A stretch of DNA of 64,000 nucleotides from an uncultured Chloroflexia bacterium (lineage in GTDB: Bacteria; Chloroflexota; Anaerolineae; JAAYZQ01), in the NCBI GenBank assembly GCA_963700285.1, contig CAVOXA010000001.1:288001-352000 (forward strand). The letters run 5' to 3'. Under the pieces are notes generated by a model. It made no database searches. It was not told the DNA's origin and saw nothing but the letters and a program-made list of their open reading frames with translations. Below are positions 51,225 through 59,129 of the stretch, in pieces. Both the position numbers and the translations under genes were made by a program. The first letter of the stretch is position 1. Each line of letters starts with the position of its first letter.

Positions 51225-51273
51225 AGGGTGCTGCTCTTTGGGCAGTTGGACCGCGCTCGATAGGAGGGGAACG

Positions 51274-52692
51274 GTGGGAACACTGATCGTCAAGTTTGGC
51301 GGTACCTCGGTCGGTAGCGCCGAGGCCCTTACTCAGGCATCTGGTATTGTGCAGGCACAGGCCAGGGACTGGGATCGCCTGGTGGTGGTCGTCTCGGCCA
51401 TGAGAGGGGTGACAGATTCCTTGATCCGTGGCGCGCGTACGGCTGCTTCCGGCGACGATCAAGTCTATCGATCTACGGTCACGGATCTGCGCGTACTCCA
51501 CTATCGGGCCGTGGATGCCCTGCTCCTTTCTGACAGCGAACGCACCCAATTGCTGGCGAGGGTAGACGAGTACCTGGACGAGTTCTCCGCTTTTTGCCAC
51601 AGTGTCTACATTTTGGGCGAGGCCACGTCGCGGGCCATGGATGCAGTCACCTCGTTGGGTGAGCGGATTAACGCACGCCTCATGGCTGCTCTGCTGCGCC
51701 AGGGTGGCCTGCGCAGTGAGGCTGTGGATGCCACCGCGGTGATCGTCACCGACGATACCTTTCAAAACGCCGTCCCGCTGATGGAGGCCAGCCGAACTCA
51801 GGCTTCCGCACGTCTGGGCCCGTTGTTAGACGAGGGCGTGGTGCCGGTCGTGACCGGTTTTATCGGAGCCACGGAGAAGGGTATCACGACGACCTTGGGG
51901 CGGGGCGGCAGTGACTATAGCGCGGCGATTCTGGGGGCTTGCCTGGACGCCGATGAAGTCTGGACCTGGACAGACGTGGACGGTGTGATGACGGCTGACC
52001 CGAATATGGTAGCGGAGGCGCGGGTGATCCCTACGCTTTCGTACAGCGAGGTAGGCGAGCTTGCCTACTTTGGGGCCAAGGTGCTGCATCCGCGGACCAT
52101 CCGTCCCGTCGTGGAGCGTGGCATTCCACTCCGGGTCAAGAATACCTTCAATCCGGCCTCTCCTGGTACCCGCATTGTCCGCGAGCCGGAAAGCACGCCT
52201 GGGACCGTCAAGGCGGTGACTGCCATCAAAGGCCTGAGCCTGGTGACGGTGGAGGGTCGAGGTATGATGGGGGTACCGGGCATCGCTGCACGTACTTTTT
52301 CGGCGGTCGCCAGTCAGGGCACCAGCGTGTTGATGATCTCCCAGTCCTCGTCGGAGCAGTCTATCTCATTTGTCATCCCTATGGATGCGGTCGTACCAGT
52401 GGTCAAGGCCATTGAGCGAGAGATGGCCTTGGAGCTGGCCCGACGGGACATAGATCGTGTCTGGTCGCTGGACGATGTGGTGATCGTGAGCGCGGTGGGA
52501 ACGGGCATGCGTGGTACTCCAGGTGTTGCTCAGCGCATCTTTGGCGCACTGGGTGAGGGGGATATCAATGTGATCGCGATTGCCCAGGGTTCATCAGAAT
52601 GCAGCATATCGCTCGTGGTCAAAGCCGAGGCTGCGGTCGACGCCGTGCGAAGGATTCACGATCAGGTGCTGCTTATCAATGGAGTATCTTGA
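51274..52692 (+). CDS. lysC: Aspartate kinase (two ACT domains)
   Basis: KFGGTSVG, VVVVSAM, TTLGRGGSDYSA, TDVDGVMTADP, FGAKVLHP; GTG 51274 after AGGAGGGG. Confidence 0.93.
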   Translation: MGTLIVKFGGTSVGSAEALTQASGIVQAQARDWDRLVVVVSAMRGVTDSLIRGARTAASGDDQVYRSTVTDLRVLHYRAVDALLLSDSERTQLLARVDEYLDEFSAFCHSVYILGEATSRAMDAVTSLGERINARLMAALLRQGGLRSEAVDATAVIVTDDTFQNAVPLMEASRTQASARLGPLLDEGVVPVVTGFIGATEKGITTTLGRGGSDYSAAILGACLDADEVWTWTDVDGVMTADPNMVAEARVIPTLSYSEVGELAYFGAKVLHPRTIRPVVERGIPLRVKNTFNPASPGTRIVREPESTPGTVKAVTAIKGLSLVTVEGRGMMGVPGIAARTFSAVASQGTSVLMISQSSSEQSISFVIPMDAVVPVVKAIEREMALELARRDIDRVWSLDDVVIVSAVGTGMRGTPGVAQRIFGALGEGDINVIAIAQGSSECSISLVVKAEAAVDAVRRIHDQVLLINGVS

Positions 52693-52715: not shown

Positions 52716-53849
52716 ATGAAGAACTATGGCTACGCATCCGTCCAGGAATTCCTCGACGATCGTATTGTCTATCGAAACCTGGTACCCTCTGATCCCCGGT
52801 TGCCACCGGTGTCAGAGGTGCGCCGGAAGATAGGGTTGCCACCTGGCCTGGTCCCGCGCAAAACTGCACCAGAGTACGCCCAGGTCATCGTCCATCTGCT
52901 CCAGCAGGCGCGGGCTCTCGATATGCCTGGCATCCCTATCCAGCGCCTGGTCTACGTAGGCGACACACCCATGAACGATGGAACGGCATTCACAAATATC
53001 AGTGATGCGGGAAACTGGCCGGGTCTGGCCTTTATTGGTTCTGATCGCGATGAACCGGCTCGCGTGGAACTGGTCGAACGTGAGAGGGGGATGCTCTACG
53101 TGGCGAACCGCTGGGGGGCGCTCTCGGACTTTCGGCAGTTCTGTCGCGACCGGAGCTTTCCGGTGGACGAGGGGACGGCCGTCATTGTTGACCTGGACAA
53201 GACGGCCGTGGGGGCGCGAGGACGCAACGATCATGTCATCGATCAAGCCCGTGTTGAGGCTGTGCGCCGGACGGTTGGCGATCTGTTGGGCGATGAGTTT
53301 GACCCGGAGAGCTTTCAGACAGCCTATGACTGCCTGAACCAACTCGAGTTCCACCCGTTCACCGCCGACAATCAAGACTATTTGGCCTACATCTGCCTGA
53401 TCTTGGGCAGTGGCCTGTATTCATTGGACGGCCTGGTGGCCGACGTGCGGGCGGATCGGGTGGCAGCCTTTCAACAGTTTATCGCTAAAGTGGACGATCA
53501 GGCTGGCGAGTTGCCTGCCAGTCTGCGGCAGATACACAGCGACATCCATGACCGTGTGTTGCAAGGCGATCCGACCCCTTTCAAGGCGTTTCGTTACACA
53601 GAGTATCTGGTCACAGTGGAAAAGATGGGTTGGTTGGCGGAAAGTGCAACGATTGATGCGTTGCTTGCGGACGAGCTTGTCATCACACAGGAGGTGCGAG
53701 AGACGGCACTGACCTGGCTTGGCCAAGGGGCATTGCTCTTTGGTCTCTCGGACAAACCTGATGAGGCATCCATCCCGACCAGTGACCTTGCCGCTCAAGG
53801 ATACCGGCCGATCCACCGAATGGATACTCGCGCTGTAGGAACTGTATGA
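52716..53849 (+). CDS. Uncharacterised HAD-like protein with permuted motif order
   Basis: RKTAPEY...[11 protein letters not shown] near the N-terminus, IVDLDKT in the middle, LFGLSDKP near the C-terminus; ATG 52716 after GGGAGG. Confidence 0.6.
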
Positions 53850-53934: not shown

Positions 53935-55257
53935 ATGGGCTACAATAGCTGGCTCGAATGTGTCCGCGGCTGCGGCCGTCGATACTCCATCTATGATGTG
54001 GTCTATCGCTGCGAGGATTGCGGTGGCTTGTTGGATGTGGAGCACGATCTGGACGCACTCAAGGATCGCAGCGCCGCTGACTGGCGACAGCTTTTTGACC
54101 GCCGGATACGGACCAATGAGTGGCCCTACGGGAGTGGTGTATGGGGCAAGAAGGAGTGGGTCTGCCCCGAGGTGGCCAACGACAACGTCGTCTCGATGTA
54201 TGAGGGGCACACCAACTGTTTCTGGGCAGAGCGCCTTGGGAAGGAGATCGGCGTGTCCGACCTTTGGGTCAAGCTGTCGGGGAATAGCCACACCGGTTCC
54301 TTCAAAGACCTGGGGATGACGGTGTTGATCTCTGTAGTACGGCAGATGATGGCTGATGGAAAACCGATTCGCGCCGTCGCCTGTGCATCCACCGGTGATA
54401 CCTCGGCAGCGCTGGCAGCCTACGGCGCTGCTGCTGGCATCCCTACGATCGTGTTTCTGCCCCGTGGCAGAGTCTCTACCGCCCAGTTGGTACAGCCCAT
54501 CGCGCACGGCGCGCTGGTACTGGCGTTGGATACCGACTTTGATGGTTGCATGCGCATTGTGCGCGAGGTCACCGCAGATCAGACCATCTACCTGGCAAAC
54601 TCGATGAACTCGCTGCGGATGGAGGGACAAAAGACAGTCGGCATTGAGATAGCTCAGCAATTCGATTGGCAGGCTCCGGACTGGCTCATCATCCCAGCGG
54701 GCAATCTGGGCAACGTTAGCGCCCTGGGCAAGGGACTGCTGATGATGCGGGAATTGGGTCTGATAGATAGGCTGCCGCGCATTGCCTGCGCCCAGGCGGC
54801 CCACGCCAACCCCCTCTACCTCAGCTATCTCACGGGCTTTGAAGAGTACATGTCTGTGTCCGCGGCCGAGACCCTGGCCACCGCCATCCAGATCGGTGAG
54901 CCGGTGAGCTATGAGCGAGCTGTCAAGGTGCTGCAGGCCTTTGACGGCGTGGTCGAGCAGGCTACCGAAGATGAACTGGCCAATGCTGCTGCTGCTGCCG
55001 ACCGTGCGGGCCTGTATAGTTGTCCTCAAACCGGTGTGGCTCTGGCGGTACTGGATAAATTGATTGCTCGTGGAGAGATTCTGCCTGAACATCGCGTGGT
55101 TGTCATCTCTACTGCCCATGGCCTCAAGTTCACTCGCTTCAAGGTCGGATATCACGAACAAGCACAGGTGGAAGTCGTGGCCCAGCACGCCAATCCGCCG
55201 GTGGAGCTGCCGGCTGACACCAGATCTGTGCTCCGGGCCATCGAGCAGGCTCTTTGA
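53935..55257 (+). CDS. thrC: Threonine synthase
   Basis: [57 protein letters not shown]. Confidence 0.93.
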
Positions 55258-57424: not shown

Positions 57425-59129
57425 ATGAGACTGACAGGAGCACAAGCGGTCTGGGAGAGCGTTGTGCGTGAAGGTGTCGACCTGATCTTTGGGATCTCGG
57501 GTGGAGCCGTGATCCACCTGTATCACGCCTTGCCCGAATTCCCCATCCGTCACGTGCTTACGCGTCATGAGCAGGGTGCGGCTCACGCTGCTGATGGTTA
57601 CGCTCGGGCCACGGGCAAGGTTGGTGTCTGCATTGCCACCTCTGGCCCTGGGGCTACCAACCTGGTCACCGGTCTAGCGACAGCACAGATGGACTCTTCG
57701 CCCATGGTGGCCATCACCGGGCAGGTCGTGACGCCTCTCATTGGCACTGATGCCTTTCAAGAGACGGACATCACGGGCATCACCATGCCTATCACCAAGC
57801 ACAGCTACCTGGTCACCGACGTCGAGGACATACCGACCGTGATGAAAGAAGCCTTCCACATTGCCAGGAGCGGCCGGCCAGGCCCGGTGCTCGTCGATAT
57901 CGCCAAGGATGCCCAAGCTGCCGAACTGGACTATGTATACCCCGACGACGTGTATCTCCCGGGGTATCAGGCTGCCCGATTCGGACCTGTCCGCCGAAAT
58001 CGAGGAGATGGCGCGGATGATCGACGAAGCGAGTAGACCGCTGATCATCGCTGGGCATGGTGTGATCCTGGCAGGGGCCGAGGATGCGCTGCTCCAATTG
58101 GTTGAGCGGGGTAAGGTACCGGTGATCACCACGTTGTTGGGCATCGGGTCCATGCCGGAGATGCATCCGCTTTGCCTGGGCATGGCCGGGATGCATGGCG
58201 AGGCGTACACCAATCTGGCGATATCGGAGGCAGATTTGCTGATCTCCTTGGGCAGCCGCTTCGACGATCGCCTCACCGGACCCGTCAGCCAGTTCGGAGA
58301 GCATGCGCGCATCGTCCACGTGGATATCGACCCCGTCGAGATCGGCAAGACGGTCTGGCCGGATCTGGCGCTGGTGGGCGACCTGAAAGATGTTTTGCCA
58401 GCGCTTGTTCCGCTGGTTGGGAATGGCGGAGACGTGGACGCGCGCCGGCAGGGGCGGGAGGAGTGGCTGGCTCGCATCCAGGAATGGCGTGGAGAGTCGG
58501 CCAAGCGGGACATCGTGGAGCAGGAAACCGACGAAATGGTGCCCCAATACGTCATACGCCAACTGTGGGAAGCGACCCGCGGCGAGGCGCTGGTAGTCTC
58601 GGATGTTGGGCAGAACCAGATGTGGGAGGCGCAGTACTTTATCCATCATCGCAGGCGGGGGCTGCTTTCCTCCGGCGGTCTGGGTACGATGGGTTTTGCC
58701 CTTCCAGCGGCCATCGGCGCCCAAATGGGACGCCCTGATGAGCTGGTGTGGGTTACCGTGGGCGATGGCGGGTTTCAGATGAATATCCAGGAACTGGCGA
58801 CTGTTGCCCAGGAAAAGCTGCCCATCAAGATCGCTATTCTGAACAATGGCTACCTGGGGATGGTGCGCCAGTGGCAGCAGTTGTTCTTTGAAGGGCGCTA
58901 TTCCGGAACACCGCTGTTGGGACCGGATTTTGCCAAGGTTGCCGAGGCCTATGGCATAGCCGGTATCACAGTCCGGAATAAAACCGAGGTCGTGTCGGCC
59001 ATTAACGAGGCCAACTCTATTGAGGGACCTGTGTTGTTGGATTTTCTCGTTGAGCAGGAAGAGAACGTCTATCCCATGGTTGCCCCCGGTGGTCCTGTTC
59101 ACGATATGATCCGCCGACCGAGACCTTAG
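57425..59129 (+). CDS. ilvB: Acetolactate synthase large subunit (single frameshift near 57970)
   Basis: [15 protein letters not shown] and TSGPGATN in frame 1; [18 protein letters not shown] and GDGGFQMN in frame 2. Confidence 0.92.

What the first reader, a model, noticed from the sequence alone, without database searches (positions are those of the whole stretch)
52716..53849. Circularly permuted HAD protein between lysC and thrC: candidate new homoserine kinase replacement
Seen: HAD-like motifs occur in the order III (RKTAPEY, ~52860), IV ([11 protein letters not shown], ~52950-52980), I (IVDLDKT, ~53190), helical cap, II (FGLSDKP, ~53750), instead of the canonical I-II-III-IV. The gene sits between aspartate kinase and threonine synthase, where thrB normally lies, and no thrB is in the window. 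Established: ThrC needs O-phosphohomoserine, and Pseudomonas ThrH is a HAD phosphoserine:homoserine phosphotransferase that bypasses ThrB. Inference: this is an unrecognised, permuted HAD phosphotransferase that makes or removes phosphohomoserine. The permutation would explain why it may escape annotation.
Basis: partly seen in the sequence, partly recalled or inferred. Interest (0 to 1): 0.8.

Follow-up and report, generated by a model that had tools for sequence, protein, structure and literature searches.

The report
Rearranged enzyme replacing homoserine kinase
An unnamed, highly conserved bacterial protein carries the catalytic motifs of a common phosphatase family in rearranged order, sits in aspartate-pathway operons and is found almost only in genomes lacking the usual homoserine kinase, so it likely supplies that missing step of threonine and methionine synthesis.

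Summary
The ORF is real (377 aa). All four HAD motifs are near-invariant in 279 relatives, in the order III-IV-I-cap-II. Profile and structure comparisons map its C-terminal part onto the N-terminal half of ordinary HADs, and its N-terminal part onto their motif III-IV region, though scores are low. It has no Pfam/NCBIfam model; named homologues are mostly hypothetical Anaerolineae proteins. In 301 same-class genomes, 137 have only this gene, 100 only thrB, 2 both (47 expected) and 62 neither. It is also fused to LysC, and clusters with two plant-type consumers of O-phosphohomoserine: threonine synthase and cystathionine gamma-synthase. Best reading: a ThrH-like but unrelated phospho-aspartyl phosphotransferase that makes O-phosphohomoserine (about 0.75). 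The donor is probably phosphoserine, possibly aspartyl phosphate. No activity was tested, and active-site geometry was not measured. The scan already found this family twice on other DNA (e1-6674330, e1-9702765).

The parts
52716..53849 (+). Gene X: 377-aa circularly permuted HAD-superfamily protein, candidate homoserine phosphotransferase (ThrB replacement)
52854..52862 (+). Motif III, P47-R48-K49; K49 aligns with the KP lysine of HAD-IA proteins
   Evidence: (K 277/279)
52959..52979 (+). Motif IV, G82-D83-x4-D88, at the end of strand 77-82 (predicted Mg2+ ligands)
53190..53204 (+). Motif I, D159-x-D161-x-T163 (D159 predicted nucleophile, D161 predicted acid/base), at the end of strand 154-159
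53208..53675 (+). All-helical cap (about residues 165-320) inserted between motifs I and II (C1 position), with near-invariant T216, D218, N219, D221, T287, R293, E296: predicted substrate-specificity site
53748..53759 (+). Motif II, S345 of S-D-K-P, at the end of strand 340-344
51271..52692 (+). lysC, aspartate kinase with two ACT domains; fused to X in 7 protein clusters elsewhere
53935..55257 (+). thrC, plant-type threonine synthase, the consumer of O-phosphohomoserine

Best explanation
Gene X encodes a circularly permuted HAD-fold enzyme that likely makes O-phosphohomoserine, and so would stand in for homoserine kinase (ThrB) in about half of this bacterial class. Shown: motif order and conservation, gene context, near-exclusion with thrB. 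Inferred from HAD chemistry: Mg2+ held by D159 and D83/D88; D159 takes a phosphoryl group from a small donor; S345 and K49 bind the phosphate; the helical cap closes over an amino acid; the phospho-aspartyl enzyme passes the group to the hydroxyl of homoserine instead of water. The donor is most likely O-phosphoserine, as in ThrH (about 0.5 overall; weakest step). The product would feed threonine synthase and, in some lineages, a plant-type cystathionine gamma-synthase for methionine.
For: (1) Profile: of 301 same-class genomes (at least 85% complete), X only 137, thrB only 100, both 2, neither 62; 47 doubles expected. Four of the six families that hold both genes have them only in different genomes (f10, f15, f20, f52). 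Outside the class, family f71 has X in 11 of 11 and thrB in 0 of 5 tested, 99-100% complete. (2) The steps on either side are present: hom 272 of 301, thrC-like 291 of 301. (3) Context, one locus per genus: asd 58, lysC 50, hom 24, thrC 12, any of them 68 of 81; asd-X in 7 of 7 phylum-level loci. (4) Seven 841-896-aa LysC-X fusion clusters. (5) In 8 of 81 loci X lies in an operon with a Cys/Met PLP enzyme; the L144 protein's best PDB match is cystathionine gamma-synthase 1i41/1qgn (423 bits versus 333 for the next; that this is the tobacco enzyme is recalled). Of the carriers tested, 4 of 4 lack metX and 5 of 5 lack metA. SAM-I riboswitches lie upstream in 4 of 10 loci scanned. In plants, Thr and Met share O-phosphohomoserine (PMC3878949, passage). 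(6) Thr-rich short ORFs upstream of lysC in 5 of 41 close loci versus 39 of 3000 random windows. (7) For phosphoserine as donor: serA-like genes in 38 of 40 X genomes; DUF1015/SerBK, a proposed serine kinase (GapMind 2026), directly behind X in 11 of 81 loci and in 0 of 20 thrB loci; a serC-like/serA/DUF1015 operon in the own genome; ThrH precedent (PMC1079889, passage).
Against: No biochemical or genetic test. No sequence similarity to ThrH was found (TIGR02137: no match in the own genome; no NCBIfam hit for X). Structure scores are low: no Foldseek hit at E<=0.001, best VIA Z 7.1 and 6.9. A block-order test against shallow HAD profiles did not favour the canonical order consistently. Kin are not independent, and no species tree was built. 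62 of 301 genomes have neither gene. Two have both (G193, G286). Two more have X plus HomK (G152, G248), with X far from aspartate genes, beside YkuD and glycosyltransferase genes. 13 of 81 loci show no aspartate-pathway neighbour (some contigs are short). One locus has an APH-family phosphotransferase between asd and X (L172; no NCBIfam match at 1e-25). The own genome has an iPGM-like gene (183 bits against the HomK model, cut-off 446), and diverged HomK enzymes can score as PGM. DUF1015 is missing from 18 of 40 X genomes.
Confidence: 0.75

Rival explanations
1. Same product, different donor: X takes its phosphoryl group from beta-aspartyl phosphate, the product of the neighbouring aspartate kinase. 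LysC plus X would act as a two-part homoserine kinase (aspartyl phosphate + homoserine gives aspartate + O-phosphohomoserine).
For: The tightest links are to the two enzymes that make and use aspartyl phosphate: asd 58 and lysC 50 of 81 loci, and LysC-X fusions. thrB in the same class shows no such link (0 of 20). Aspartate and homoserine share the C4 amino-acid skeleton, which suits a ping-pong single-site enzyme, and an acyl phosphate gives a favourable transfer (own knowledge).
Against: Pathway clustering alone explains the linkage. The fusions may stem from one lineage (all 54-55% identical to the query; one is named Levilinea sp.). I know of no precedent. SerBK adjacency points to phosphoserine.
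Confidence: 0.17
2. X is only a phosphatase: a phosphoserine phosphatase (SerB substitute) or a clean-up enzyme for phosphohomoserine or aspartyl phosphate. Another gene supplies the ThrB step.
For: Most HADs are hydrolases (own knowledge). Canonical serB is over cut-off in only 1 of 40 X genomes. DUF1015 adjacency ties X to serine metabolism.
Against: serB is equally missing from thrB genomes (0 of 40), which lack X, so X tracks loss of thrB and not loss of serB. A phosphohomoserine phosphatase should co-occur with thrB, not exclude it. A side phosphatase activity, as in ThrH, stays compatible with the best explanation.
Confidence: 0.1
3. X is a true kinase-like HAD that uses ATP, pyrophosphate, polyphosphate, PEP or acetyl phosphate to phosphorylate homoserine.
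For: The cap is large (about 155 residues) and holds several near-invariant basic and acidic residues (R168, R170, R179, K290, R293), room for a larger donor.
Against: No nucleotide-binding family or fold stood out. ThrH, once thought a kinase, has no ATP-dependent activity.
Confidence: 0.1
4. The thrB exclusion is a lineage artefact and X has an unrelated role.
For: Presence is largely family-wide (31 X-only, 17 thrB-only families of 61), and some copies lie in unrelated contexts.
Against: Exclusion also holds inside four mixed families and in family f71. Operon linkage, fusion and the links to two O-phosphohomoserine consumers do not depend on lineage.
Confidence: 0.05

Closest known systems
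ThrH of Pseudomonas aeruginosa (HAD phosphoserine:homoserine phosphotransferase / phosphoserine phosphatase; TIGR02137)
   Same: HAD catalytic motifs, cap between motifs I and II, and the proposed role: ATP-independent formation of O-phosphohomoserine through a phosphoenzyme (PMC1079889 passage).
   Different: No detectable sequence similarity. X is 377 aa against a 203-position model, has its motifs in the order III-IV-I-II and a much larger cap. Its activity is untested.
HomK / ThrB2 (TIGR02535, BT2402)
   Same: Non-orthologous ThrB replacement first proposed from gene context and complementary distribution, later confirmed by thrB complementation; donor unknown, phosphoserine suggested.
   Different: [quoted passage not shown] Found in only 3 of 301 genomes of this class.
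C1-capped HAD phosphatases (HAD-IA/IB: beta-phosphoglucomutase, phosphoglycolate phosphatase, SerB)
   Same: Residues 148-374 superpose on the N-terminal 55-70% of such chains. Residues 44-96 align with their motif III-IV region.
   Different: Permuted chain order; identities of 6-22%; a cap without a clear match; no Pfam HAD hit for this protein, and PF00702 in only 2 of 84 members.
ThrB (GHMP kinase, TIGR00191) and APH-type ThrB (TIGR00938)
   Same: Proposed product and pathway position.
   Different: Unrelated ATP-dependent folds; TIGR00191 is nearly mutually exclusive with X.

Membership tests
HAD superfamily | Motif I DxDxT at the end of a core strand | tested here: met
   D159 278/279, D161 278/279, T163 274/279; strand 154-159; aligns to HAD motif I, E 7e-4
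HAD superfamily | Motif II Ser/Thr at the end of the next core strand | tested here: met
   S 268, T 11 of 279; strand 340-344; coevolving pair V156-A339 among the top five; weak profile match to the motif II region, E 0.03-0.05
HAD superfamily | Motif III Lys and motif IV GDxxx(x)D | tested here: met
   K49 277, D83 277, D88 278 of 279; residues 44-96 align K to K and GD to GD with a 17-row HAD-IA profile, E 2.4e-4
HAD superfamily | Rossmannoid core fold | tested here: inconclusive
   Model pLDDT 97.3, pTM 0.93. For fragment 148-374, 17 of the top 50 VIA rows are HAD-type enzymes (by title or my recall), best 6iah Z 6.9, rmsd 4.3, 151 aligned; all Z under 8. Foldseek: no hit at E<=0.001
HAD superfamily | The four motifs meet in one Mg2+ site | not testable with these tools
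   No coordinates available. Indirect only: single compact model; noisy coevolution pairs Q76-G153, V79-V150, V156-A339
HAD superfamily (canonical topology) | Motif order I-II-III-IV | tested here: not met
   Order III-IV-I-II in all aligned members: a permuted variant
ThrH (TIGR02137) | Score over the family cut-off or detectable homology | tested here: not met
   No NCBIfam hit at E<=1; no TIGR02137 match in the own genome
ThrH-like function | Phosphoserine:homoserine phosphotransfer; rescue of thrB mutants | not testable with these tools
   Needs an assay
ThrH-like function | Occurs where thrB is missing while hom and thrC are present | tested here: met
   137 of 139 X genomes lack thrB; hom 272 and thrC-like 291 of 301
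HomK (TIGR02535) | iPGM-related sequence over cut-off | tested here: not met
   No hit for X in NCBIfam or Pfam
SerB (TIGR00338) | Score over cut-off; distribution complementary to serB | tested here: not met
   No hit; serB over cut-off in 1 of 40 X and 0 of 40 thrB genomes

The most novel reading that the evidence does not exclude
X is a naturally permuted HAD enzyme that uses beta-aspartyl phosphate from its partner (sometimes fused) aspartate kinase as phosphoryl donor. LysC would then double as the ATP-consuming half of a homoserine kinase: an undescribed reaction, feeding a plant-like O-phosphohomoserine branch point for threonine and methionine in Chloroflexota.
Probability: 0.17. Interest if true: 0.85.

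Novelty: new variant of a known kind. Interest (0 to 1): 0.62.

Why it matters
ThrB is one of four steps that make up 65% of the remaining amino-acid biosynthesis gaps in prototrophs; it is missing in 16 of 208 genomes (GapMind 2026, passage). This family (at least 3,452 proteins at 90% clustering, 139 of 301 sampled genomes of its class) would be a further ThrB substitute beside ThrH and HomK. It would remove false threonine-auxotrophy calls for a widespread, mostly uncultured group, and it would correct LysC-X fusions now labelled aspartokinase/homoserine dehydrogenase. It is also a natural circular permutant of the HAD fold that profile and sequential structure searches miss. One complementation experiment tests it.

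Tried and rejected
Pfam, NCBIfam and PDB sequence searches gave nothing for X itself; retroviral capsid rows at E 0.09-1 are chance. Foldseek found nothing at E<=0.001 for the whole model or the fragment. VIA on the whole model gave generic alpha/beta domains at Z 6-7, with one phosphatase (6iah, model 154-374 on chain 1-166). ESM Atlas: own clusters 0.98, HAD-named clusters 0.76-0.77, a lead only; nothing for the fragment. All 24 orders of the four motif blocks against three shallow HAD profiles: the canonical order was best for one template and near-worst for two in global mode, so inconclusive. The coevolution analysis (279 rows, reduced alphabet) is noisy and used only as a hint. Long homologues with unknown N-terminal parts (607-816 aa) have no Pfam domain and show one matching stretch each, so they are not evident duplication intermediates. 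The thrC family search did not discriminate, because paralogues are everywhere. No Rfam element in window 42000-64000. The second-look VIA search on Foldseek's top chains never ran. No complex prediction or read mapping was done. Literature: no paper held Anaerolineae + homoserine kinase + threonine, circularly permuted + haloacid dehalogenase + CheY, or Chloroflexota + thrB + HAD + permuted; circular permutation + HAD superfamily + haloacid dehalogenase gave one review on glucan enzymes, seen as a listing only. The library lacks most subscription papers, and the GapMind 2026 supplements were not seen; they could list this family.

Full report
1. Observation. The ORF at 52716-53849 (+) encodes 377 aa behind a GGAGG. 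It lies between an aspartate kinase (51271-52692) and a threonine synthase (53935-55257; TIGR00260 206 bits, cut-off 167) whose best solved relative is the chloroplast enzyme 1e5x. X itself has no Pfam, NCBIfam or PDB sequence match.

2. The family. 3,452 of 7,998 scored candidates are homologues at E<=0.001; those with a name among the 120 listed are 'hypothetical protein', several from Anaerolineae or Chloroflexota. The 50%-identity library gave 351 hits. Of the 80 best loci in named genomes, most are titled Anaerolineae or Chloroflexota, with single Gemmatimonadota, Thermotogae and Bipolaricaulota bins; I infer that the class searched below is Anaerolineae. In 279 de-duplicated relatives the catalytic positions are near-invariant: K49 277, D83 277, D88 278, D159 278, D161 278, T163 274, S/T345 279. 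So is a set of cap residues (T216, D218, N219, D221, T287, R293, E296).

3. Is it a permuted HAD? The AlphaFold2 model is confident (pLDDT 97.3, pTM 0.93) and puts motifs IV, I and II at the ends of strands 77-82, 154-159 and 340-344, with a helical cap at about 165-320. Sequential structure searches of the whole model fail or give generic alpha/beta domains. Folded alone, residues 148-374 match HAD-type enzymes in 17 of the top 50 VIA rows (assignment by title or my recall). In 16 of the 17 the match starts within the chain's first 10 residues and stops at residue 119-166 of 208-276. The best is 6iah, Z 6.9, rmsd 4.3, 151 aligned; all Z are under 8. The N-terminal part supplies the rest: residues 44-96 align with the motif III-IV region of a 17-row HAD-IA profile built from fetched DNA, K49 on the KP lysine and G82-D83 on GD (E 2.4e-4); the same region touches residues 157-193 of HAD 2hcf (E 0.21). 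Against HAD-IB profiles, 150-166 maps to template 7-23, 313-345 to 85-119 and 73-95 to 175-196 (E 7e-4, 0.05, 0.3). Coevolution hints at strand pairing (V156-A339, Q76-G153) and at N- and C-terminal ends lying together (L13-G343, Y6-D370), as expected of a permutant, but is noisy. A block-order test was inconclusive. Each line is weak; together with the invariant motifs they make the permutation very likely. The inferred sheet order would be 2-1-3-4-5, like receiver domains; that comparison is recalled, and a search found no paper for it.

4. Distribution. The own genome (89% complete) has no thrB, thrB_alt, thrH or HomK over cut-off, but has a homoserine dehydrogenase in two pieces. In 301 same-class genomes, X was found in 139 and thrB in 102: 137 X only, 100 thrB only, 2 both, 62 neither, against 47 doubles expected. 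Kin are not independent. By family, 31 are X-only, 17 thrB-only, 7 have neither and 6 are mixed; in four mixed families no genome has both. hom (272 of 301) and thrC-like genes (291 of 301) are common. HomK occurs in 3 of 301, two of which also have X. In a phylum sample X is in 15 of 151, including 11 of 11 of family f71, where thrB is absent from 5 of 5 tested.

5. Context. Among the 80 closest loci, 55 have a plant-type thrC downstream (my count), usually as lysC-asd-X-thrC. With one locus per genus (81 loci, up to 6-7 kb each side, some contigs short) the same-strand neighbours are asd 58, lysC 50, hom 24 and thrC 12; 68 have at least one. As control, 20 thrB loci had thrC in 11 and lysC/asd/hom in none. 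Seven protein clusters fuse a full LysC to X. Eight of 81 loci carry a Cys/Met PLP enzyme ahead of lysC-(asd)-X; the one searched is closest to cystathionine gamma-synthase 1i41/1qgn by 90 bits (plant origin recalled). The carriers tested lack metX (4 of 4) and metA (5 of 5). SAM-I riboswitches precede 4 of 10 loci scanned, three of this type and one headed by metX. Other copies sit by metK, metX-metW or B12/pterin methyltransferase genes. After reading earlier finding e1-6674330 I looked for Thr-rich leader ORFs: 5 of 41 close loci versus 1.3% of random windows, and 6 of 47 genus-level loci at a looser threshold. The window itself has no such leader; lysC follows aroQ directly.

6. Mechanism. 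Shown: motifs, context, distribution. Inferred: a Mg2+-dependent phospho-Asp159 intermediate, and transfer to homoserine. X is tied to the trunk that makes homoserine and to two different consumers of O-phosphohomoserine, under both Thr-type and SAM-type control, and it replaces thrB genome by genome. The simplest account is that it makes O-phosphohomoserine (0.75). It does not track serB, which is missing from both groups (1 of 40, 0 of 40; the 40 + 40 genomes were hand-picked for completeness and family spread). The donor is open. For phosphoserine: the ThrH precedent, serA-like genes in 38 of 40 X genomes, and DUF1015/SerBK directly downstream in 11 of 81 loci and present in 22 of 40 X versus 10 of 40 thrB genomes. 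For aspartyl phosphate: the lysC/asd linkage and the fusion.

7. Against. No experiment; low structure scores; two X + thrB and two X + HomK genomes, the latter with X in an unrelated context; 62 genomes with neither gene; an APH-family gene inside one operon; a possible diverged HomK cannot be excluded in X genomes, since the class search used E<=1e-75.

8. Comparison and novelty. It would work like ThrH but is not a member of that family, nor of HomK. It meets the HAD motif tests but not the canonical order. Papers seen as passages only: PMC9026213, bioRxiv 10.1101/741918, bioRxiv 10.1101/2024.10.14.618325 ('Chloroflex' and 'Anaerolin' occur 0 times in its main text; supplements not seen), PMC1079889, PMC3878949. 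The ThrH primary papers were not read. Searches found no description of this family. Two earlier AI findings of this scan reached the same reading on other genomes; they are not independent evidence, and my reading was recorded before. New here, as far as their short notes show: the link to plant-type cystathionine gamma-synthase, SAM riboswitches and SerBK, and the fragment-level structural mapping.

9. Verdict. Real, conserved, unannotated, very likely a permuted HAD, and probably the missing homoserine kinase step of about half of its class. New variant of a known kind; interest 0.62.

Noticed in passing
window 43659-63806: X lies inside one long same-strand run of amino-acid biosynthesis genes. 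By translation these look like DAHP synthase, prephenate dehydrogenase, aroA, aroE, aroC, aroK-aroB, aroQ, lysC, X, thrC, ilvD, ilvB (in two frames), ilvN, ilvC, leuA, leuC; only aroQ, lysC, thrC and ilvD were scanned. asd is missing here, unlike in most relatives.
   Followed up: partly
window 57425-59129; G000:C4:85887-88286; G000:C9:346583-347789: Several housekeeping genes of the own genome are split by frameshifts (ilvB-like in the window; a second lysC with asd on C4; hom on C9). Probably assembly indels, so absence calls in this genome need care.
   Followed up: partly
L139:3839-4735, L145, L188, L196, L204: In family f43 a proC-like reductase (PF03807 + PF14748) sits between lysC and asd, where hom lies in other lineages.
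   Followed up: partly
L144:5633-7124, L146, L148, L282, L283: Bacterial cystathionine gamma-synthase closest to the 1i41/1qgn enzyme, behind a SAM-I riboswitch in three loci, in genomes without metX/metA: a candidate plant-like methionine route from O-phosphohomoserine.
   Followed up: partly
L031:5730-6197 and other loci among L007-L086: A conserved 155-aa ORF with no Pfam hit at 1e-12 occurs in 29 of the 80 closest loci by clustering (which may include overlapping spurious ORFs); in L031 it lies between X and thrC.
   Followed up: no
P0255, P0256, P0258, P0260, P0233: Distant homologues (about 30% identity) carry an extra 230-430-aa N-terminal region with no Pfam match; the start of P0233 looks like a nucleotide-cyclase-type motif (recalled, untested).
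   Followed up: no
L078:6001-8316; G017, G063, G249: Some genomes hold two copies of X; in L078 they are tandem between asd and thrC.
   Followed up: no
G000:C10:1877862-1881353: Aminotransferase (serC-like), short serA-like gene and DUF1015 in one operon in the own genome, which has no serB over cut-off.
   Followed up: partly
families f23, f24, f25, f26, f50, f53, f56: Seven families (18 genomes) have neither X, thrB nor HomK: auxotrophs, or carriers of yet another substitute.
   Followed up: no
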